In this document: positions 5,170-35,777 of the stretch, in pieces
How the letters are laid out: each line of letters begins with the position of its first letter
Position numbering within the stretch: the stretch's first letter is position 1
Origin: Xylographa opegraphella
Taxonomy: Eukaryota
Length of the DNA: 45,385 nucleotides
Reading direction: 5' to 3'
NCBI GenBank assembly: GCA_022813865.1
Contig: JALDZX010000028.1
Coordinates: 248,001 to 293,385 of the forward strand
Position numbers and translations under genes: made by a program
The notes under the pieces: generated by a model
The model's database searches: none
Told to the model about the DNA's origin: nothing
Seen by the model: only the letters and a program-made list of their open reading frames with translations

Positions 5170-6375
5170 GCGGGATGGACGAGATGGGGAGATGGGCGAC
5201 TTGGGCCAAGACGGTGTGATGTAGTAATAAAGTCCAGTATCGATGGTTGTGGGTAGTTGTCTATGAGTATTCGCAGTGTTATGCTGAATGTCAAGAACAT
5301 CAATTGACGTGTTGACTTCGCTTCACTCTTGTAATTTGATGAATGCCAAGAGGGTAGTTTGGAAAATAAACAATCATATCTTTACCACGTAATACCTGAC
5401 CTCGGCTCATCCAAGTTTGCTGGATTATTCTTTCACAAGTCCGAAAGGTGCGACGTATGATATATTTCAATCATACGACATTGGACATACCAATCTATAT
5501 CGACAGATGTTTCCACAAGGTATTCGAACTTACAACAAGTTGGACAGCCTGGACAACCTGGAAAGCGAATATATGAGTCTTGGCTGCCAAATCACCATGC
5601 ACGTATGGAAAACTCTGCCTCGGCCTGAGTACAATGGCCAGGGCTCTTGAATGATATCTTCTCCCAACTGTGATAAGGCATGATATTCTGCTTAAAGACC
5701 CTTCTTCGACTCAAAAAAATCCTCTGTCAGTGAATGACACCAGTAATGAAGTCGTCAATGGAGAAGCCAAATCTGATAGCCGTACTGAAACCCACAACGC
5801 AGTATGTAGCAGGATTAAACACGCCACGATGATTGCATCGGTCTTCAGCTTAAGTTCCTCACACGAACGCTTTAGGATGAGATCTATCTATGCACAGGAA
5901 TAAAGTAGAGGCTCCGCCAGCAACGTGGATATCAAAGTGCTTGATGTAAACATTGCATTACAAGGAGAGGCAGACAGTTTTTTATCGGACGGGTTCGAAT
6001 CTCGTATGCTCATGAGGCTGAAGATGAACCTAGCTCTAGCAGGTCAGCTATCATTGGCAGACCAACCGATTGATTTGCACATGTTGCATGCCGTTAGGGA
6101 TCAACAACGGCTTGTACACATTGGAACAACTTGAGAACATCCTCACTACACTTCAGCAGTAGGTTGCTTCACCGTATTTGTGCTTTCGATAACTCACCGA
6201 GCTCGGTGACGGAATGAAAGTTGTGTAACAGCAATGCCATCATAAATTGTTGGCACAATGTAGGACTAAGCGTACGCCTAACAATACACTTCGAGATAGG
6301 ATATATTCACACAAACTGTTCGCAGATCACCGCAAAGTAAAACGCCTTACATTTAATTACCCGCGTGATCTGACC

Positions 6376-7002: not shown

Positions 7003-8165
7003 TCAGTCTAAATCTGCGGGTGGCGGTGGTGCCTCCACCGTCTTCGGTTTCGGCTTCGTCAAAGGCTTCGGAGATGCTCCTCCGCCACCAAACAGCATGC
7101 TTCCCATCATATCGAATAATGGGTTACCCTGCTTGGGAATCTTTATGCCAAAGTACAGCTCTCCGATCTGTGCCAGAGCGTCATCCCACATCCCAACGTC
7201 TCTGATATGTACTGCATAATGCTTTGCGAGCTGCCGGTACAGGTCCGCCCCGCCGCGCTGGATTGCTAGCAACAAGAGACCAAGGAAATTCATCAACGGG
7301 AGGACGGGAAAAACTCGTATATCAGAGCTCGTGCTGCTGACTTCTTGGACACCCAGAGACTTGTTGGACGATGTGAGGCGGGAGTTGAAAATGAGGAGAG
7401 CCTTGTTAGCCGATCTCAAGTTCCCTGTGAGTAGATATGGGAACACAGCACGAGCCGCATATTGGGCGGCTGTATGGGAGTCGTCCTGGGTATACCACTC
7501 ATACTCTACGAGCGCGAGCTGCTCCGGGGAGTCCTTATTGCCAAGTGCTAGATGGCGCTCGGCTTCGTATGGTTCGGATTCTAGGATGTTGAGCTCTAGC
7601 ATTATAGGCAGAGCGATTCCTGTCCATACCTTCTGCATACAATGTGCCCGCAACGTGATGCAGTTCTGGATCTCCGTTCTCGTAATCCCCAAACTTTGCT
7701 GACCACGCCATCATTTCATCTACAAATCTCTTCTTGGTAGGCTCTTCTGGTGGAAATGCCCTCAGCAGCGCCAGCAGTTTGCCTGAAGCAAAATATCAGC
7801 CGCCCTTCGTGCACCCCCTTTCCGCATCTCACCTCCCATGCATACCATGAAACTTACCTTTACTCTCTGCCCCTACGTCCACCGCTCCCTTCCCGTACAC
7901 ATCCACCATGTATAGACATAAGTCACCTCCGCTGCCCCCTTGCCCCGCTTTCAACAGTGCAAGCGCACCGCCATAAAGAATGTCGATCGCTGCAACCCAT
8001 TTATCTTGCTTGATGTAGCGTGAGGCTACGACACGTAGCTGTTGATGCGCTTCGTAGAACTGACCTTCGGAGATTCTGTTCGAAAGGTTATTAGTGTGGG
8101 TGTTAATGGGATATAGAAGTGTACTTTTCTTGCTGGCGAGCGATGGTCTTTTCGATTTTGGACAT
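7003..8165 (-). CDS. GET4: GET4 (Golgi-to-ER traffic protein 4); exons 8165-8125, 8075-7858, 7782-7630, 7580-7003
   Basis: Spliced product MSKIEKTIARQQEKISEGQFYEAHQQLRVVASRY..GDPELHHVAG..YEAERHLALG..PLMNFLGLLLLAIQ..IGELYFGI; canonical introns. Confidence 0.95.
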
Positions 8166-16295: not shown

Positions 16296-18406
16296 ATGTT
16301 GCGATTTTTGAAGTCACCGGCACTACAGTGCTGGGGCCATATTCCGCGATGTAGGTCCAGTCACGGAAACATGTGCCAAGGATTTGCCACATTCACAGAG
16401 ACTGCAATGTAAGCTTCGTGGTAGAAATACTGTTACATTCTGGAGTATAAATACTGATACAATGTTTTCGTAGGCAGTATGATGTAGTCGTCATTGGGGG
16501 AGGTCATGCTGGCACTGAAGCCTCCAGCGCTGCTGCTCGCTCGGGCGCAAAGACGGCGCTTGTGACACCCTCAATATCAAACTTAGGCGTTTGCTCGTGC
16601 AATCCTTCGTTCGGCGGAATCGGAAAGGGTACGATGATTCGAGAAATAGACGCTCTTGATGGTCTTACAGGGAGAATGGTGGATAAAGCCGGTGTGCAGT
16701 TCCGAGTCTTGAACAAGAAAAAGGGACCCGCAGTATGGGGACCCAGGGCACAGATCGACAGAGAGCTTTACAAAAAGGAAATGAGGACAGAAATTCTGTC
16801 AACAAAAGGTCTGTGTGTCGTTGAGGGTAAAGTTGCGGACATCGTGATGTCTGAAGGACATGATAGGATGGAAACTGTGGGGAAAAGGGTTACAGGTGTA
16901 AGATTAGAGTCAGGGGAAGTACTTGAATGTGGAAAAGTGGTCATTACAACAGGGACATTCTTAGGAGGCGAGATACATATTGGACTTGACGTCTTTCCCA
17001 GTGGAAGAATAGGCGAAGCTGCCACGCTTGGGCTCAGCAAATCTCTTCGGCGTGCTGGCTTCAAACTCGGACGGCTCAAGACTGGGACACCTCCGCGATT
17101 AGATCGCAGATCCATCGACTTTTCTAAACTGGACGTACAGCCTGGTGACGATCCTCCAGTACCGTTCTCATTTCTAAGCGACACAGTAACAGTCAAGGAC
17201 CAGCTCGATTGTTACAGTACAGAAACAAATCCTATAACGCATGATATCGTTAGGGAGAATCTGTCCAAGAGCATACATATACGAGAGACAGTCAAAGGGC
17301 CACGATATTGCCCTTCATTAGAAGCAAAGATTGTTCGCTTCCAGGATAAAGACCACCATATAGTCTGGCTTGAGCCCGAGGGCTTTGATACAGATGTGAT
17401 TTATCCAAACGGAATATCAATGACTGTGCCTGCTGACGTACAGCGAGCTATGCTTCGAACTATCAAGGGCCTTGAAAACGTGACAATGCTCGAGCCAGGA
17501 TATGGAGTGGAATATGATTACGTTGATCCACGGAATTTACGCGCAACCCTAGAAACCAAACTTATATCAGGATTGTACTTGGCAGGGCAAATCAACGGTA
17601 CCACAGGATATGAAGAGGCTGCCGCCCAAGGTATCATCGCTGGTATCAATGCTGGTCTCGCTGCGCAAGGGAAAAATGAAATGGTAATCAGTCGAGGAGA
17701 CGGCTATATTGGGATTATGATCGATGATCTCATTACGAAAGGTGTTAGTGAGCCTTACAGAATGTTTACCTCAAGGAGTGAATATCGTATGAGTGCTCGT
17801 GCAGATAATGCCGATCTGCGTCTCACTGCCAGAGGAAGACATGCAGGCGTTGTTGGCGACAAGCGCTGGAGGCACTTTGACGATCTCTCAGCTGAAATGC
17901 GCTCCCTTAAGTTGTTGTTACAATCAACCAAAAAAAGCTCCTCATCATGGATAGATCACGGTTTCCAAGTCCACCAGGATTCCACTCATCGATCTGCTTT
18001 CGACCTTTTGCGTCTCCCTGGTGTTTCAATCGAGTCACTTTCACCACACATCTCTACAGTCTCATCATTTTCAAAAGTTGCCAGACAGAGGGTAGGTATC
18101 GAAAGCATATACGCACCTTATGTTGAGCAGCAGAAAGCAGCGATTCGTATTTTCGAACGTGATGAGCAGCTGAAACTTCCGCCTGACCTGGACTACAGTA
18201 TTATTCATGGGCTAAGCACGGAAGAGAAACGAGTCTTAAAACTCGTACGCCCAGAAAGTGTAGGGATGGCCAGGCGATGCGAAGGTGTCACCCCTGCTGG
18301 AGCACTGAGACTTCTTGCCTTTGTTCGCGGGGCTCGAGAGAAGGAAAGGCGGCATACTGCTTGGCAAGAGCTGGAAGTGAGGCAAGAAATGATCCTTAGT
18401 ACATAA
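16296..18406 (+). CDS. MTO1: Mitochondrial tRNA U34 modification enzyme (GidA/MnmG family); intron 16409-16473; alternative in-frame ATG at 16284
   Basis: Presequence-like first exon, [18 protein letters not shown] motif, [40 protein letters not shown]. Confidence 0.96.
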
Positions 18407-21108: not shown

Positions 21109-22634
21109 ATGACTTCGTTTGATATACAGCCATTGAACCGGTTTGCCGATACCAGCGCAGCCATAAGAAGGCCTAAGGTATCAGTGTAGCGGGCTGCAGT
21201 TAAGCATGAGCGCTAACGGCTCTGAAGGAAATTGCGTACTTCTCGTACGACGATGATCATCAATACCATCTTGATGAACGTTCTTTACGCTACTACTATC
21301 CTCCTCGGCTGGGCGCGGATCTTTCCAAGGGTTTCGATACCTTCAAGCAGCTGGACGACAACGCAGATGACCATCTGGACAGCTTGCTGAAGACTATTAT
21401 GGCCTTGGAAGGCGAGACTGGCACGAGATGCGAGGCAGACATCGTTACATGGAGAGGCATGATGACAAAGGTGAGGCAGCTACCTTCGCCCAGCTGTATG
21501 CTTATGTTGACACGCTATAGATCATGACCGCACCATTCGACAATATGGGCGGCAATGGGTGCGTTTGGCTGCACCTTCATTTAGAGTGAAATCCTAATTA
21601 AGCTAGGTTTGAGATGAACGCAACGAATTTCCAAGTGTGCCTTCCCCGGTCCGACAGTGGATGACAGCGGCTGACAGTGTGAGTGAGCGAAGGGGACAAT
21701 GTGAGGTTTGCTTATGAGCTTTCTTAAGCACTTCTGATATCCCTTAGCTTCATCGAAGAGAACCGTGAACGCAAGTTAGAACAGCGCCGATATCAACATA
21801 TCCAACGTTCGCAGGCTGGCACTCCGTCACAGGAGCTTATGAGCTATTGGGGTACTTACTACATGTGAACAAATAGCAAGACCGTACTGAACGGCCACAT
21901 AGGCTATAAGTTTGAGATATTGTCACTTTTACCTGGCCCTTGGGATCGAACATCCAGAGAGTATATTGAATCGCGGGAGAACGAGATTGTGAGCAATTAC
22001 GCTCAGTACTGCTCGATTGTCAAGACCGGTATCGGCAAGGCAAAAATGATCTTGGGTGGGGAAGTGGATGCTGGTGAGTTCTGCTCACTTCAGCCGTCAC
22101 CATAGTATTCTCATTGAGTTATAGTATGGGATAGTAAGCCCGACAATAGAGATGATCTTATCAACTGGGTCGAGCTCAAGACATCTGCCATGATCGAGAG
22201 TGAGAAAGACATGATCAAATACGAACGGAAGTTGTTGAAGTTCTGGGCTCAGTCGTTCTTGCTCGGGGTTCCCAAAATCGTTGTTGGGTTTCGCAGCAGA
22301 ATGGGAATCCTGCAGAGACTGGAGGAGCTTGAGACGAAGAGTATACCTGGAATGGTAAAACGTAGCGGAAAAGCCTCCTGGGATGGGAATATTTGTATCA
22401 ATTTTGCAGCTGGTTTTCTTGATTGTTTGTCTACAAAGTCCTAAATAGACGTGAAACTGCTGACTGCCTTTAGGGCTACAGCAGACCATCACGACAGAAG
22501 GTGTTTGGCGGATTCGACGTCGGGACAGATCATCAGTGATTGAAGTCTTCAGACATGAAGATTCTGGATATGGAGATATTCTTTCGCATGAGTTCGTTTC
22601 GTGGCGTAAGAGAGGAACATCGCTTGGTGCTTGA
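21109..22634 (+). CDS. RAI1: Decapping/exoribonuclease RAI1/DXO family, about 8 introns including an 8-nt micro-exon
   Basis: EIAYFSYD, IVTWRGMMTK, YWGYKFE, ILGGEVDA, WVELKTS, KLLKFWAQSFLLGVPKIVVGFR. Confidence 0.93.
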
Positions 22635-24038
22635 ACTTTGCGATATTTCCTCGATTGGAATGGAAACTACGTGTTTATGGGTATCGAGGGCCTTCCTGTC
22701 CCTCTCAGTCGAGGTAGTCAGCCGGATAGGCTATCAACTATATTTCGATTTTCAGTGTCACCTTTTCGTGTTGCCATGTGGTTTTTTTTTTTCATTCCTT
22801 GATCATCTGATCATCTGATGGTGAAATCCGTAGCAATAGCACACGCACTTGTCACTTGTTGTATCCACGAGATTTCCCAAGCATCCAAACTGTATGTTCT
22901 ACTTCATCGATTCATCAACCCTATAGTTTATAGCCAGTGCCGCCAATAGTTCAATCTTGTCGGTCTAAAATGGCTCACTTTCTTGTTTCCTAGAATGGTC
23001 GGCTCAGCTCGCTCCTCTGGCTCATTAGTCGACTCAGCACGAAGGTCTCAAGCTTCGAATTTTTTGCTGGAATTATCGGCATGAACCGGTTCACGCTTTC
23101 AAATTCTGAGAGGGTCGGCTCGGCTTACTCCTGAGGCTTCATCTTCGCTGTAGCTTGACGGTTTCAAGCTGGCCCGTCTGCACCATTGGCGACGCTGTCT
23201 ACAATCCTTAGTTCTGTAATGAGTCGAACCAGAGAATCTTCCGTTTTGGTCCGGTCTAATCGCCATTTACCACGATTCGATGCTTGAATTTGATCAATTG
23301 AGCGCCACGGCATCAGTCGACACTGGAAGCGAAATGCTCCTGCACTGTGCCGCGGAGAAAAGGCTAAACCAGAGTGATAATTGGTGAAAGTGGATGTCAA
23401 TTTCAGGATCCAACTACAGAGGGGCCCCTTATTCCAGTTGTATCGCAGCTTTTGCATCAGGACATCTACCATCTTCAGTAAAGTTGGGATTCTCAGTGGA
23501 AACCCAGCCATTTAAGACTGACCAAGAGTGAACAGCGATGACTCTTCACAGCTCCAAGTGTCGCTGATTGGGGTGACAAAATATCCAGTTCACATCCAGT
23601 ATGGCTCGAGTGGAGAAGGCTAGCCAATGAGCAAACACTAGGTCGACAGAAAAGCGAGGTATCTCAACGGCCAAGTCTTTCTTTGGAATACTATGATTGA
23701 TCTGGCAGACAGGGTATGAAGAAATAGGAAGTGAGCTGTGGTAATGGTAGAGAATTTACTTAGATACATAATAACATGCCATGACACTCCAATTATGGGA
23801 GCCTTTATTCAGCCAACGCAAGAGTATATAGGATCATCTAGTACAATATATGATGAACCCAAGACCAATCAAGCATCTATTACCAAAAAAGCATTACTCG
23901 TTACGGGCGCAACATCGATCGCAGCTCAAGACGCTTCGGTCATACAAAAAAACATATTTCGAACGCATCAAGAAGCGAATACCAAACATTGCCAACGTCC
24001 AAAACATGGACGAGCACAAGCGAAAGGAAGTAGCGGGC

Positions 24039-24048
24039 AAAAAAGAAA
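24039..24048 (-). terminator. RNA polymerase III oligo-T terminator of the tRNA gene
   Basis: TTTCTTTTTT on the minus strand starting 8 nt after the discriminator base. Confidence 0.8.
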
Positions 24049-24055
24049 TTCATAC

Positions 24056-24178
24056 TGCGATAACGGGGACTCGAACCCCGCACTCAAGCATGGGAAGCTT
24101 GACTGCATAATTATTAGCCGGATCAACCAACAGAAAGGCGAGACGTGACGAACATTTTAACCCCTAAACTATTATCGC
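24056..24178 (-). tRNA. tRNA-Gly(CCC) with a non-canonical 51-nt intron (24153-24103) after nucleotide 25
   Basis: Spliced: GCGATAA TA GTTT AGGGGTTA AAAT|T CAAGC TT CCC AT GCTTG AGTG CGGGG TTCGAGT CCCCG TTATCGC A; acceptor, D, anticodon and T stems all pair; anticodon at 24094-24092. Confidence 0.9.
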
Positions 24179-25035
24179 CTGAGCACAAAGATCCAGTTTT
24201 TTAAAATGAAATATATAATTGTTTATTGAATCACAAAATGCAAAAAGAGGTTGTCGGATTACAAAAATCGCGAAAATGTTACGTCGATCAGTGAACTGTA
24301 GATTTATGATAGAGGAGTAGTAGGAATCAATCGAATTGTGCACCTTTCCGTATCTCGGGAGATCGGTCGAAATATTCAAGTATCAAATTACAAAAAACCA
24401 GTCTACATTTTGTCCACTTCTCGTGCTGGGGGTCGTCTAGAAAGGGAAACCCCTTGGTTTTATGATATAACCCAATACCCATGATAATAATGGCCTCAAG
24501 GATTATATTCGAAGGTCGATTGACTGCTGTCTACTTCGTGTTACAACCGACATTTGCAAAATCCTTGAACTTTTATTGCTTGACATTCCAGGTTCGATCG
24601 ATCGGTGTGGTTTGGCCCTAGGTTTGTAGTCTACAAGCTTTCACGATGACAACTTAGGAGAATCGGAAGTACTAAAATCAGGACGAAGAGGCGCAGTTTG
24701 AGCTTGGAAGGCAGAGTGAGCGGTCCACTCCTCAAATCCACGGACCGAGTTTGAGGGCTCCTGTTGGTACAATCCTAGCATTTATAATCGTTCCGCAATC
24801 CGGTTGAGGCCATAGGAGAAGATTGCGGCTGATCGGAGCGAGCCATTTTGGTTGGTTTCAGAGCGAATGGGAACCTATCTTCGACTAATATATTGTTCCC
24901 CAATAGAGCAATGGAGACTAGCAATCGTGGCTGTAGCTAAAACACAATTATCTTGCTTCCCGCATGGTATAAAGCGGCGGTTTCTGTGTCCCCGGCTGCT
25001 GAGAGGGTATCGTAAGCGTCTGTCAATATCGGCAG

Positions 25036-26508
25036 CTACTCATCACCAGCATGAATGGCATGAGCTATCTCATGATCTTGATATTCAAAGTTGCGAGGGG
25101 CCTTAAGCAGGGCTTTATGCTTCCGACTTTTGGTGTGATCGTTCCAACTTCGTTTGGTCGTTACAGTAGTGCCACATAGGTTACAGTGGCGCACGTAGTC
25201 ATCCTTTACGTCCTGGGCCACCACCTTTGCAGGATCAAGTATTGCTGACGCCGTTCGCGAGAGCGAGCGGGGTTCCCGAAGCGGCTTTCCGGCCAGAAAA
25301 TCAATGGCAACAAAGTAAGAAATTGTTTCAGCAGAATTAGCTTCATCACCGCGATCCAGAAGGAACAATCTGCCATCAGCCTGCACTTCTGCTAGTGCTT
25401 TAACAAGTTTCAGACGGATCCACCTATCTTGACGTTTGGCGTATTGCCGTGTAGCAATCTTGGTGAGCTCGGCACCAATCCGCTTGTGATCAGCCACCCG
25501 CAAAGCGTCAGCCCCGTCTCGGATAGCATCAATATAATCTTTGAATTCCTTGTAGCCGATGGCTACCCAGATTCCCCTAGTAGTGTCGACCAAGGTTCCC
25601 ACTCGTCTCTGCTCACGGTAGTCAGCATCCATGTACTCAACTTCGGCCAAGAGCCCACGAGTAATCATCTCATCTACTCGCTTATCGAGGCTTTCCTTCA
25701 GTGCCACAGGGTCTCTGTAAAGCCAAAAGACTAGCGTATCATAACACAACGATGAATGCTGGTTCGATAAGTTCTCCGGCCTTGTTCGACTGTCAAACTG
25801 GGCAATCTCAGAAGATTTTCCAACTGCACCAACCACGTCTGATTCTTTCCGTGCTGGCCGTTGTTCGGCATAAATCTCGGAAGCCTTCTTCCCTGTTTCT
25901 AGCCATATCTGTAAGCTGCGCCGGATCTTTCTCGCGTCCTTTGGATGCCATTTGCGTGCCATCGCAGGATCTACCTTCTTCAGTTCTTCCAGCATTTCCT
26001 CACCATCTTTCCCAAGAATAGGCCATCTCTGTTCTTGCTCTTCGGTAGAGATGTGGGCCTCTGACTTGTCAACCACACCGTCCTCAAAAAGCAGGGACTG
26101 TATATAGTAATGGGTACCTCCCACCAGGATCGGTAGCTTTCCCTTTCCCCTGACTTTGTCAACGACTGTTCTAGCCTCCTGCACAAATCTGTGGGCAGTC
26201 CATGGCTCATCGTATAGTCCTATACAATCTAGCAAATGATGTGGAATGTCATGCCGTTCTGCGACGGCAATTTTATTGGTTGCAATGGGCAAGCCCTTGT
26301 AAAGCTGGAGGGCATCGGCATTTATAATCTCCCCATTGAACTTCTCCGCAAGGAAGACGGCAAGCTGCAGCTCTCAGTATATAGTCGTAATACGCGAGGA
26401 ACAACGGACCTGAGACTTCCCAGTGCCTGTTGCACCCACAATTGCTACAAGTGGCTTCCCTGGGACTCCGGGCAGCATGATTGATCGGCGAAGTACGGAT
26501 TGCAGCAT
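25036..26508 (-). CDS. MOD5: tRNA dimethylallyltransferase (i6A37); intron 26409-26365
   Basis: VAIVGATGTGKSQ|LAVFLAEKFNGEIINADALQLYKGLPIATNK, ILVGGTHYYIQSLL, ATRQYAKRQ, C-terminal zinc finger CNLC..WNDHTKSRKH. Confidence 0.95.
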
Positions 26509-27051: not shown

Positions 27052-27958
27052 ATGATGTCTACCACTAACGGCGACGTCAAAGAGATAGCTCCCACCATCG
27101 ATGTCACTTCACTCTCTTACGCTTTTCCTGATGGCTCCTCCGGCCTCAGAGATGTGATTCTTAACCTCCCTTCGGGCAGTCGAACGCTCTTGATCGGCGG
27201 TCCGTAATAACAATCCACTCTATCATCTGTTGTCTAAACAAATACCCGCAGCCAATGGCGCCGGTAAGACCACTCTCCTCCGTTTGCTCTCCGGCAAGCG
27301 GCTTGCTCCCACTGGTACTGTCTCTGTCGCCGGTATTGATCCTTTCAAAGACGGTCTCGAAGGCGTTACCTATCTCGGTCTTGAGTGGGTTTTGAATCCT
27401 ATCGTTCGGACCGACATTGACGTCCCCACGCTGCTTGCCTCGGTGGGCGGAAACTACTTTAGCGAGCGTCGGGACGAGCTCGTTGAGATCCTGGATATCG
27501 ATTTAGCATGGCGGATGCACGCCGTAAGCGATGGTGAAAGGCGGAGAGTGCAACTCGCAATGGGTCTGTTGAGACCCTGGACTGTGCTTCTACTGGATGA
27601 AATCACCGTCGATCTCGATCTACTAAGTCGGAGCAATTTCCTTGCATTTCTGAAGCGGGAGACCGAGATCAGAGCATGCACAATTGTTTATGCTACCCAC
27701 ATCCTGGATAACTTAGCGCAGTGGCCAACGCATTTAGTACATGTGCACGTAGGCCGGGTAAAGGAGTGGGGAAGTATGGAGAAATTTGATGTGGGCGGAT
27801 TCAGAAAAACTGGAAACAGCCAATTGGGCGAACTGGTTCTGGAATGGCTGAAGGATGATCTGAGGGAGAGAGGTCCGAGAGGCGGCAGAGCTGGTGAGGG
27901 TAAAACATATGAAAGCCTCGAAGGGAAAGGGGGTTATGGGAATGAGAAAAGAGTCTGA
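27052..27958 (+). CDS. CAF16: CCR4-associated non-transporter ABC ATPase; intron 27200-27251
   Basis: [56 protein letters not shown]. Confidence 0.93.
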
Positions 27959-34559: not shown

Positions 34560-35777
34560 ATGGCCGAAGAGAAGGTCACAACGATGGGGTTCATGCAAGA
34601 CAATGCCATGATGACGGCTATACGAGATACGTACATAGCATTCTCAGAACGGCGGGAGGCCCTTGCACTGTCAAATCCAGGAACGGTTGACAATGTCGCG
34701 AGGGAGGTGCAGAAGGATGTTTTCCTCAAGAATTACATGTTCACTGGACTACGAGCCGACTTGACCAAGCCTTTCAGTATATCACCTGTGTTCCACGTCT
34801 CTCATGCTTTCGCGATGGGCTCTCAAGAAGGTTTACCTCCATACACGTTTGCGACCCTCTATGGAACACCCAAGGTTGGTCGAAACACATCCAACATGAG
34901 CCTTAAATGGCACTAATCAGCATTCAGGTTTTTCTTCAAGGAAACGTAGACAATGAAGGTCAATTTTCAGGACGCGCGAACTACAGGTGGACTGATGCCC
35001 TTGTGACAAAGACGAATGCACAGATTGCCCCAGGCCCAGGCCAGGCTATGTTCCAAGTTGACAATGACTACACCGGCAAAGACTTCACTGCGTCGCTAAA
35101 GGCACTAAACCCCTCTATCCTGGAAGGTGGTCTGACCGGTATCTACATTACCAGCTATCTACAATCAGTAACCCCCAGTCTCGCGGTCGGTCTGGAAATG
35201 ATGTGGCAAAGGGCGGCAGTCAATACCGGTCCAGATACCGCCGTCTCTTACGTTGCTAAATATAAAGGAAGTGACTGGATTGCCAGCGCACAATTACAAG
35301 CCCAAGGAGCAATAAATACATCGTACTGGCGGAGACTGACGGAGAAGGTTGAAGTTGGAGCGGACCTCAACCTACAGTTTCAGCCGGGTATGGGGGGTCG
35401 TGGTGGTTTGATGGGAAGTGGATTACGAAAAGAAGGCACAACGACCTTGGGAGCGAAGTATGACTTCAGACAATCCACGTTCCGAGCGCAGGTGGACAGC
35501 ACGGGTCGCTTAAGTTGCTTGTTGGAGAAGAGGGTGCTGCCGTATGTACAGCTGAGCTTTGCCGGAGAGCTTGACCAATTCAAGGTTGGTGTCACCCGCC
35601 TTATCGTGAATGCGTACTGCGTTCTTTCATATGCGAGGAAGTCGCTGACTATACTTCCAACCTATACAGCAACAAGCGAAAGTTGGCTTGGCCGTCTCGG
35701 TCGAAGCGCCCAATGAAGAACTCCTGGTACAGCAAGAGAACGCCATGAGCTCCACAGCTCCACCACCTCCCTTCTGA
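34560..35777 (+). CDS. TOM40: Mitochondrial outer membrane import channel; introns 34875-34927 and 35585-35669
   Basis: [66 protein letters not shown]-terminal PPPPF*. Confidence 0.97.

What the first reader, a model, noticed from the sequence alone, without database searches (positions are those of the whole stretch)
24056..24178. tRNA-Gly(CCC) gene interrupted by a spliceosomal-type (GT-AG) intron at position 25/26
Seen: the minus strand reads GCGATAATAGTTTAGGGGTTAAAAT [GTTCGTCACGTCTCGCCTTTCTGTTGGTTGATCCGGCTAATAATTATGCAG] TCAAGCTTCCCATGCTTGAGTGCGGGGTTCGAGTCCCCGTTATCGCA, followed by an oligo-T terminator. The 51-nt insert has a GTxxGT donor, a GCTAAT branch site and a CAG acceptor, and matches the size of mRNA introns in this window. 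Excising exactly GT..AG yields a 72-nt cloverleaf. The insert has no run of 4 or more T, so Pol III could read through it. Established: eukaryotic tRNA introns normally sit at 37/38 and are cut by the TSEN/SEN endonuclease; spliceosomal introns are known in some fungal U6 snRNA and lichen-fungal rRNA genes. Inference: this tRNA may be matured by the spliceosome, a Pol III transcript entering the U2 pathway, possibly after reverse splicing of an mRNA intron. GGG decoding would then be tied to splicing. Odd insertions in fungal Gly(CCC) tRNAs may have been noticed before, so novelty needs a literature check. One deviation: position 48 is G rather than a pyrimidine.
Basis: partly seen in the sequence, partly recalled or inferred. 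Interest (0 to 1): 0.92.

Follow-up and report, generated by a model that had tools for sequence, protein, structure and literature searches.

The report
tRNA gene split by mRNA-type intron
A glycine tRNA gene of a lichen-forming fungus is interrupted, outside the usual tRNA-intron site, by a 51-base insert that looks exactly like one of the fungus's own messenger-RNA introns; if it is really spliced out, this would be the first tRNA known to need the spliceosome.

Summary
On the minus strand, 24178-24056 is a tRNA-Gly(CCC) gene split between positions 25 and 26 by a 51-nt insert (24153-24103). Rfam's tRNA model matches exactly these ends (35 bits), and ARAGORN calls tRNA-Gly(CCC) only after excision. 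Two uninterrupted homologues from metagenome contigs (L092, L062) keep all 21 stem pairs. Of 15 excision registers tested, only the exact GT...AG cut restores their junction. The insert carries GTTCGT, a GCTAAT branch site 11 nt from a CAG end, and a typical local intron length. It closely resembles a homology-validated 53-nt porin intron in the same window. The chance of the full signal set is about 2e-5 per register. No bulge-helix-bulge motif is present. The host is a Lecanoromycete near Xylographa, a group known for ectopic spliceosomal introns in rDNA. No RNA data, whole genome or close orthologue could be reached, so actual splicing, and the rival of a freshly inactivated gene, remain open. 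In four reviews and a software paper (passages read) and eight full-text searches I found no report of a spliceosomal intron in a tRNA gene. Verdict: real feature, probably a new variant of a known kind, and untested at the RNA level.

The parts
24056..24178 (-). Interrupted tRNA-Gly(CCC) gene (123 nt)
   Evidence: RF00005 35.0 bits, model 1-71; ARAGORN tRNA-Gly(ccc) after excision
24154..24178 (-). Exon 1: tRNA positions 1-25 (acceptor 5' strand, whole D arm)
24103..24153 (-). 51-nt insert, candidate spliceosomal-type (GT-AG) intron between positions 25 and 26
   Evidence: no other copy in the window
24056..24102 (-). Exon 2: tRNA positions 26-73 (anticodon arm, 4-nt variable region, T arm, acceptor 3' strand, A73)
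   Evidence: 87% identical to L092 over 47 nt
24148..24153 (-). Donor GTTCGT (GTNNGT type)
   Evidence: validated local introns have GTTGGT and GTAAGT
24113..24118 (-). Branch-site-like GCTAAT; branch A at 24114, 11 nt before the insert's end
   Evidence: the porin intron has ACTAAT at the same 11-nt distance
24103..24105 (-). Acceptor CAG
24092..24094 (-). Anticodon CCC
24160..24171 (-). A-box-like TAGTTTAGGGGT (tRNA positions 8-19)
   Evidence: sequence; consensus recalled, not tested
24067..24077 (-). B-box GGTTCGAGTCC (tRNA positions 52-62), 83 nt after the A box because of the insert
   Evidence: sequence; consensus recalled
24039..24044 (-). T6 run, Pol III terminator-like, starting 12 nt after the gene
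24211..24217 (-). TATATAT at -39 to -33; L092 has TATAAATA at about -41 to -34
   Evidence: role inferred

Best explanation
This is a nuclear tRNA-Gly(CCC) gene of a lichen-forming Lecanoromycete that has acquired an mRNA-type (U2-type, GT-AG) intron between tRNA positions 25 and 26. Proposed mechanism: Pol III transcribes the whole 123-nt unit from its internal A and B boxes to the T6 run. The spliceosome recognises GTTCGT, the GCTAAT branch site and CAG, and removes the 51 nt as a lariat. This joins ...AAAAT to TCAAGC... and gives a 72-nt tRNA that is then end-processed and charged with glycine. The likeliest origin is reverse splicing of an excised mRNA intron into a tRNA transcript, followed by reverse transcription and recombination, as proposed for fungal U6 introns. 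Shown: the gene, the exact GT...AG boundaries of the insert, its intron-like signals and size, the absence of a BHB motif, and intact exons and flanking Pol III-type signals. Inferred: transcription by Pol III, actual splicing, the machinery used, and the origin.
For: (1) Only the exact GT..AG excision, 1 of 15 registers tested, restores the AATTC junction of two uninterrupted homologues. (2) The full signal set (GTNNGT, CTRAY 8-30 nt from the end, YAG) occurs in 113 of 5,000,000 random local 51-mers, 2.3e-5 per register. Allowing all 73 ARAGORN-tolerated registers gives at most 1.6e-3; an earlier run gave 35 of 2,000,000. (3) Size and layout match a homology-validated local intron: the porin intron is 53 nt, GTTGGT...ACTAAT (11 nt)...CAG, with flanks matching Porin_3 positions 1-61 and 67-264. 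The GET4 intron is 75 nt. (4) The exons are intact: all 21 stem pairs form. Against L092, 17 pairs are unchanged, 4 changed on both sides and 0 are broken. The RF00005 score is above gathering. (5) No 4-bp central helix of a BHB motif forms in either geometry within +/-3 nt; the best is 3 of 4. (6) The gene lies in an ORF-poor spacer, 858 nt beyond the Mod5-like stop, and the overlapping 137-aa ORF has no Pfam match, so the insert is not an intron of a coding gene. (7) The host is a Lecanoromycete (MTO1 87-89% identical to Xylographa). Lichen fungi carry ectopic spliceosomal introns in rDNA that are removed in vivo, and a 57-bp one was spliced from Pol I transcripts in yeast (PMC8527467, passages). 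Pol III-transcribed fungal U6 genes carry spliceosomal introns (PMC5855946, passages).
Against: There is no RNA evidence of any kind. It is a single locus in a single genome. No orthologue with the insert was found, and both homologues found are intron-less, so the insert may be recent and the intact exons may only reflect youth. I could not check whether the genome has another tRNA-Gly(CCC) gene. The window's tRNA has G15/G48 where both homologues have A15/T48, an unusual tertiary pair. The predicted minimum-energy fold of the precursor (-42.0 kcal/mol) pairs D-arm bases with the insert, whereas the fold that keeps the cloverleaf has -33.6. The 5' exon is only 25 nt plus a leader. From recalled knowledge, tRNA-Gly(UCC) can read GGG, so loss of this gene could be tolerated.
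Confidence: 0.5

Rival explanations
1. Inactivated gene: an intron-derived or intron-like 51-nt unit was inserted recently into a dispensable tRNA-Gly(CCC) gene. The transcript is not spliced productively, and GGG is read by another tRNA-Gly or another gene copy.
For: Both homologues found are uninterrupted, so the insert is derived. No conservation or expression data exist. G15/G48 departs from the A15/T48 of the homologues. The predicted precursor fold disturbs the D arm. Dispensability of tRNA-Gly(CCC) is recalled from yeast, not tested.
Against: There is no decay at all in the exons (21 of 21 pairs), the B box, the T6 terminator or the upstream TATA-like element. If the insert arose by reverse splicing, the same site is by construction a substrate for forward splicing. 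The splice signals are complete and in the local layout.
Confidence: 0.3
2. Spliceosomal removal, but from a Pol II transcript: the tRNA is embedded in read-through from the upstream Mod5-like gene or in an independent non-coding Pol II RNA. It is spliced co-transcriptionally and then released by RNase P and RNase Z.
For: The tRNA is on the same strand as the Mod5-like gene, 858 nt downstream of its stop. Spliceosome recruitment is normally coupled to Pol II (established knowledge).
Against: 858 nt is long for a fungal 3' UTR (recalled). The gene keeps its own A and B boxes, an upstream TATA-like element and a T6 terminator. Pol I and Pol III transcripts with spliceosomal introns are spliced in fungi.
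Confidence: 0.08
3. Non-canonical tRNA intron removed by the tRNA splicing endonuclease (TSEN) and ligase, as in archaea, Cyanidioschyzon merolae and nucleomorphs.
For: Introns at 25/26 exist in archaeal tRNAs, and non-canonical introns exist in some eukaryotic nuclear and nucleomorph tRNA genes (PMC4090602, passages).
Against: No BHB motif: the central helix pairs at best 3 of 4 in any register within +/-3 nt, and one strand would have to come from the anticodon stem. Fungal TSEN measures from the mature domain to 37/38 (recalled). The coincidence of complete spliceosomal signals (about 2e-5) would be left unexplained.
Confidence: 0.04
4. Unrelated insertion (filler DNA or a mobile-element fragment) that has GT, branch and AG by chance, or an assembly artefact.
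For: Loose intron-like strings are common when position is free (24 sites against 18.9 in shuffles).
Against: With position and length fixed, the chance is about 2e-5, and at most 1.6e-3 under the loosest count. There is no second copy of the insert in the window. One contig of run X1 covers the stretch with 0 differences at word depth 158, though X1 may be the source of the assembly and so is not independent.
Confidence: 0.05

Closest known systems
mRNA-type (spliceosomal) introns in fungal U6 snRNA genes (Schizosaccharomyces pombe, Rhodotorula; Tani and Ohshima 1989, 1991, as cited in PMC5855946)
   Same: A short GT-AG intron with a branch site inside a small, structured, Pol III-type non-coding RNA gene of a fungus. 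The proposed origin is reverse splicing. The intron is species- or lineage-specific.
   Different: The host RNA is a tRNA, which is not a spliceosome component and has no known proximity to the catalytic centre. Splicing is proven for S. pombe U6 and not shown here.
Ectopic spliceosomal introns in nuclear rDNA of lichen-forming and other ascomycetes (Bhattacharya et al. 2000, as cited in PMC8527467 and PMC5855946)
   Same: The same fungal group (Lecanoromycetes). Introns of about 50-60 nt with mRNA-type signals in a gene not transcribed by Pol II. These introns are removed in vivo, and a 57-bp one was spliced from Pol I transcripts in yeast.
   Different: The host there is Pol I rRNA, not a Pol III tRNA. 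Many cases with phylogenetic distribution are known there, against a single locus here.
Non-canonical (BHB-type) tRNA introns of archaea, C. merolae and nucleomorphs (PMC4090602; PMC3728597, abstract only)
   Same: A tRNA gene interrupted outside 37/38. Position 25/26 is used in some archaeal tRNAs.
   Different: Those introns are defined by a bulge-helix-bulge motif cut by the tRNA endonuclease. No such motif is present here, and the insert instead carries spliceosomal signals.
   Same: The same kind of claim, a spliceosomal-looking intron in a nuclear tRNA gene, in an unrelated lineage.
   Different: It is an unchecked AI note, a different isotype and organism, and I did not see its sequence. 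It is a lead only.

Membership tests
tRNA (Rfam RF00005), isotype Gly, anticodon CCC | Covariance-model score at or above the gathering threshold | tested here: met
   35.0 bits against gathering 29, model 1-71, on the unspliced locus with permissive filters. Missed with default filters.
tRNA (Rfam RF00005), isotype Gly, anticodon CCC | Cloverleaf with CCC at positions 34-36 once the insert is removed | tested here: met
   ARAGORN calls a 72-nt tRNA-Gly(ccc). 21 of 21 stem pairs form and 4 are compensatory against L092.
tRNA (Rfam RF00005), isotype Gly, anticodon CCC | Eukaryotic glycine identity set (G1:C72, C2:G71, G3:C70, A73; recalled) | tested here: met
   Read from the sequence. The identity rules are recalled, not taken from a call.
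Spliceosomal U2-type GT-AG intron | GT at the 5' end with extended donor, CTRAY branch site near the 3' end, YAG acceptor | tested here: met
   GTTCGT, GCTAAT with branch A 11 nt from the end, CAG. Chance 2.3e-5 per register.
Spliceosomal U2-type GT-AG intron | Length and layout as in the host's own mRNA introns | tested here: met
   51 nt against validated local introns of 53 nt (porin) and 75 nt (GET4). Only two introns are validated on both flanks.
Spliceosomal U2-type GT-AG intron | Exact removal restores the uninterrupted gene | tested here: met
   1 of 15 registers, the GT..AG one, restores the junction of L092 and L062.
Spliceosomal U2-type GT-AG intron | Excised in vivo as a lariat, dependent on the spliceosome | not testable with these tools
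   No RNA holder listed.
BHB-type (endonuclease-cut) tRNA intron | Bulge-helix-bulge motif with a 4-bp central helix at the two junctions | tested here: not met
   Best 3 of 4 pairs in any register within +/-3 nt; 1 of 4 in the canonical geometry.
BHB-type (endonuclease-cut) tRNA intron | Eukaryotic canonical position 37/38 | tested here: not met
   The insert lies between positions 25 and 26.
Introner / introner-like repeated intron family | Many near-identical copies in the genome | tested here: inconclusive
   No second copy in the 45-kb window; the best other match is 12 nt. The rest of the genome is not held.
Pol III type 2 (tRNA-type) gene | Internal A and B boxes and a downstream T-run terminator | tested here: met
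   TAGTTTAGGGGT, GGTTCGAGTCC and T6 read from the sequence. Consensus recalled. Transcription itself was not tested.

The most novel reading that the evidence does not exclude
A nuclear tRNA whose maturation requires the spliceosome. This would be the first spliceosomal intron in a tRNA gene, removed from a Pol III transcript, in a fungal group that also tolerates spliceosomal introns in rRNA. It would show that reverse splicing can seed introns in abundant RNAs that never sit in the spliceosome's active site. It would also tie the decoding of GGG codons to splicing capacity. Because standard tRNA finders look for non-canonical introns only in archaea with BHB models (PMC8450103, passages), more such genes could be hidden in eukaryotic genomes.
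Probability: 0.45. Interest if true: 0.85.

Novelty: new variant of a known kind. Interest (0 to 1): 0.63.

Why it matters
Textbook and review accounts keep the two eukaryotic splicing systems apart: tRNA introns sit at 37/38 and are cut by a protein endonuclease, while the spliceosome works on Pol II transcripts (PMC10275265, PMC10680797; passages). Known exceptions on the spliceosome side are snRNA and rRNA genes (PMC5855946). A spliced tRNA would extend that list to the third polymerase's main product. It would give a natural test case for spliceosome action on a small, tightly folded, uncapped RNA. It would also bear on how new introns arise. A practical point holds whether or not the insert is spliced. 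Such genes are invisible to ARAGORN and to default Rfam filters and would be missed by tRNAscan-SE's eukaryotic mode, so tRNA sets of lichen fungi may wrongly appear to lack Gly(CCC).

Tried and rejected
(1) Whole genome: none held, so other tRNA-Gly(CCC) copies and other split tRNAs could not be sought. (2) Sequencing runs: no RNA holder listed; one DNA holder, possibly the source. Laying X1-X3 at 80% likeness gave only the X1 contig (0 differences) and a 40-nt fragment of X2 in the Mod5 gene; X3 gave nothing. (3) Metagenome scan with a strict exon-2 core: 0 loci. Of these, 108 are contiguous by ARAGORN and 7 are not (mostly 3' halves with bacterial-type ends); my tally gave 92 bacterial-like, 21 eukaryote-like and 2 other. 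That tally misfiled L062 as bacterial-like because CCA follows its end by chance. None has an insert like the window's. (4) The same strict pattern in genome contigs and viral contigs: 0 and 0. (5) Indirect route through mechanically called ORFs that read across the locus: the search of protein representatives gave 0 hits at E<=0.001; the search for homologous proteins found no candidate of 31-100 aa sharing three words. I did not verify that such spurious ORFs are in those libraries, so this says nothing about relatives. (6) genome search on L092's record: not held, so synteny of L092 could not be tested. No window protein matches any fetched locus. (7) Absence of T-runs as a sign of Pol III adaptation: rejected, 2 of 24. 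(8) ARAGORN as a boundary test: rejected, 73 of 81. (9) The de novo ORF-joining intron catalogue was noisy: 1,502 raw candidates and 12 with all signals. At least one of these (27650-27700, minus strand) is antisense to an ABC-transporter gene, so only the two introns with Pfam support on both flanks are used. (10) An Ire1/HAC1-type loop at the junctions was considered by eye and not seen; not computed. (11) Earlier notes of this scan by place and by sequence: nothing.

Full report
WHAT IS THERE. It consists of 25 nt (24178-24154) holding the acceptor 5' strand and a complete D arm, a 51-nt insert (24153-24103), and 47 nt (24102-24056) holding position 26, the anticodon arm with CCC (24094-24092), a 4-nt variable region, the T arm, the acceptor 3' strand and A73. 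ARAGORN finds no tRNA anywhere in the intact window, and Rfam with gathering thresholds and default filters finds nothing. On an 801-nt stretch with permissive filters, Rfam's tRNA model matches exactly 24056-24178(-), model positions 1-71, at 35.0 bits (gathering 29), E 1.7e-5. It treats the anticodon arm plus insert as one 68-nt local block. When the 51 nt are removed by coordinates, ARAGORN calls a 72-nt tRNA-Gly(ccc).

THE HOST AND THE NEIGHBOURHOOD. The window is eukaryotic: Pfam finds tuberin/Rap-GAP, MBOAT, MTO1/GidA, a Mod5-type IPP transferase with a zinc finger, and WD40; RAI1 in three consecutive pieces and an ABC ATPase; and porin, GET4 and 6PF2K. The MTO1 homologue is 87-89% identical to proteins named from Xylographa parallela and X. 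trunciseda, followed by many other lichen-forming Lecanoromycetes at 72-84%. The host is therefore a Lecanoromycete near Xylographa. The tRNA lies in an ORF-poor spacer between the RAI1-like gene (+ strand; last Pfam-matching piece ends at 22444) and the Mod5-like gene (- strand; stop at 25036-25038), 858 nt downstream of that stop on the same strand. The only sizeable ORF across it (23735-24148, +, 137 aa) has no Pfam match. The insert is thus not an intron of a protein-coding gene.

ARE THE BOUNDARIES REALLY GT...AG? ARAGORN cannot say: 73 of 81 excision variants (start +/-4, length 47-55) still give a tRNA call. Two of these, L092 (on a 369-kb contig) and L062 (on a 237-kb contig, beside a GAG-pre-integrase fragment), carry uninterrupted, eukaryote-type tRNA-Gly(CCC) genes of the same family. 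L092 is identical to the window's spliced form at 60 of 72 window positions. All 21 stem pairs are kept: 17 unchanged, 4 changed on both sides, 0 broken. Both homologues read AATTC across the D-arm/anticodon-arm junction. Of 15 excision registers tested (shift -2..+2, length 50-52), only shift 0 with length 51, the GT...AG cut, restores a 72-nt product with that junction. The insert is therefore a discrete unit bounded exactly by GT and AG, and relative to these homologues it is a gain.

DOES IT LOOK LIKE A SPLICEOSOMAL INTRON? It has GTTCGT at the 5' end, GCTAAT with the branch A 11 nt before the end, and CAG at the 3' end. My first de novo catalogue of local mRNA introns was noisy, and at least one candidate is antisense to a real gene. 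I therefore kept only introns whose two flanking frames match consecutive positions of one Pfam profile. These are the porin intron 34875-34927 (+), 53 nt, with flanks at Porin_3 positions 1-61 and 67-264; and the GET4 intron 7783-7857 (-), 75 nt, with flanks at positions 1-50 and 52-103. The porin intron reads GTTGGT...ACTAAT (branch A 11 nt from the end)...CAG, almost the same layout as the tRNA insert. The full signal set occurs in 113 of 5,000,000 random local 51-mers, 2.3e-5 per register. Even allowing all 73 registers that ARAGORN tolerates, the bound is 1.6e-3. An earlier run that counted up to three registers gave 35 of 2,000,000. One caution applies. When position and length are free, such strings are no commoner in the window than in Markov shuffles (24 sites against a mean of 18.9). 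The signals carry weight only because the tRNA fixes where the insert starts and ends.

IS IT A tRNA-TYPE INTRON INSTEAD? No arrangement within +/-3 nt of either junction gives the 4-bp central helix of a bulge-helix-bulge motif. The canonical geometry pairs 1 of 4 and the best pairs 3 of 4, and that best case would need one strand of the anticodon stem. The position is 25/26, not 37/38. Known non-canonical tRNA introns in eukaryotes (nucleomorphs, C. merolae) are ascribed to BHB-recognising endonucleases (PMC4090602, passages; PMC3728597, abstract).

IS THE GENE OTHERWISE ALIVE? All stems pair. The B-box GGTTCGAGTCC and an A-box-like TAGTTTAGGGGT are present, a T6 run starts 12 nt after the gene, and TATATAT lies at -39 to -33. 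L092 has TATAAATA at about -41 to -34 and a T6 run downstream. The box consensus sequences and the tolerance of TFIIIC for an 83-nt A-B spacing are recalled, not tested. The insert has no T run longer than 3, but only 2 of 24 local intron-like strings do, so this is uninformative. Several points count against full function. The window has G15/G48 where both homologues have A15/T48. The minimum-energy fold of the precursor (-42.0 kcal/mol) pairs D-arm bases with the insert, whereas the fold that keeps the cloverleaf has -33.6. Intact exons may simply mean that the insertion is young.

WHAT COULD NOT BE DONE. No whole genome is held. No RNA run is listed and only one DNA run holds the locus, possibly the source itself. 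Contigs of the two other runs of that study do not cover the locus. Strict exon-2 patterns found nothing in metagenome, prokaryote-genome or viral contigs. An indirect search for mechanically called ORFs reading across the locus in relatives found nothing, and I did not verify that such ORFs are in those libraries. L092's contig could not be read beyond 632 nt, and no window protein matches any fetched locus, so orthology by synteny is untested. Expression, splicing, the age of the insert and the presence of a second Gly(CCC) gene are all open.

MECHANISM AND RIVALS. The best reading (0.5) is a functional tRNA gene whose Pol III transcript is spliced by the spliceosome, with an origin by reverse splicing. 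Pol III- and Pol I-transcribed fungal RNAs with spliceosomal introns give precedent. U6, and also U1, U2 and U5 snRNAs and rRNA, are listed in the U6 review (PMC5855946, passages). Lichen rDNA carries ectopic spliceosomal introns that the mycobiont removes, and a 57-bp Cladonia grayi rDNA intron was correctly removed from Pol I transcripts in yeast (PMC8527467, passages). The main rival (0.3) is a recently inactivated, dispensable gene. Lesser rivals are splicing within a Pol II read-through transcript from Mod5 (0.08), endonuclease-type splicing (0.04), and a chance insertion or artefact (0.05).

NOVELTY. I found no report of a spliceosomal intron in a tRNA gene. Eight full-text searches turned up none. 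I also read passages in two tRNA reviews (PMC10275265; PMC4090602), the U6 review, the permuted-tRNA review (PMC3978253), two intron papers (PMC11782384 and PMC13149111) and a Mucorales tRNA-ligase preprint (PMC10680797). The library lacks most subscription journals, so this is not proof of absence. tRNAscan-SE 2.0 describes non-canonical intron search only for archaea, with BHB models (PMC8450103, passages), so such genes would be missed in eukaryotes. One earlier, unchecked note of this scan (e1-4091646) reports an mRNA-type intron in an alga's tRNA-Ala gene. It is a lead that the phenomenon may recur, not support. I file the finding as a new variant of a known kind: ectopic spliceosomal introns in non-coding RNA genes, here in a tRNA.

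VERDICT. The feature is real and precisely delimited, and the sequence evidence clearly favours a spliceosomal-type intron over a tRNA-type one. Function is unproven. Interest is 0.63. If splicing is shown, it would deserve about 0.85.

Noticed in passing
window 16451-18406 (+), 21210-22444 (+), 25036-26373 (-): The split tRNA sits among three genes of tRNA or RNA metabolism: MTO1/GidA (tRNA U34 modification), RAI1/Dxo1-like nuclease, and Mod5-type tRNA isopentenyltransferase. This is probably coincidence. I recall that Mod5 is linked to tRNA-gene-mediated silencing in yeast.
   Followed up: no
L092:272-345 and L062:2987-3060: These are uninterrupted eukaryote-type tRNA-Gly(CCC) genes on 369-kb and 237-kb metagenome contigs, the closest relatives of the window's tRNA that I could find. 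L062 lies beside a GAG-pre-integrase (copia-type) fragment. Their organisms are unknown.
   Followed up: partly
L108 (whole locus, 436 nt), compared with L029 and L035: These are tRNA-Gly(CCC)-like repeat copies whose 5' end does not pair with the 3' acceptor strand. L108 has about 27 extra nt in the D region relative to its siblings. They look like tRNA-derived repeats of an unknown aquatic eukaryote.
   Followed up: no
window 23735-24148 (+): A 137-aa open frame runs antisense through exon 2 and most of the insert and has no Pfam match. An automatic annotation could call it a hypothetical protein and so mask the tRNA gene.
   Followed up: partly
window 27650-27700 (-): A 51-nt string with all splice signals that joins two open frames lies antisense to an ABC-transporter gene (27194-27958, +), so it is very likely a false intron. 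It shows how easily such signals arise by chance (24 sites against 18.9 in shuffles).
   Followed up: yes
window 5989-6005 (+): A T-arm-like string (5-bp stem around TTCGAAT) is present, but no tRNA is found within 400 nt upstream, even when ARAGORN allows introns.
   Followed up: yes
L017, L036, L037, L112: Loci from record series related to those of L092 and L062 carry a bacterial or plastid-type tRNA-Gly(CCC). This suggests mixed fungus-plus-phototroph or bacterial samples.
   Followed up: no
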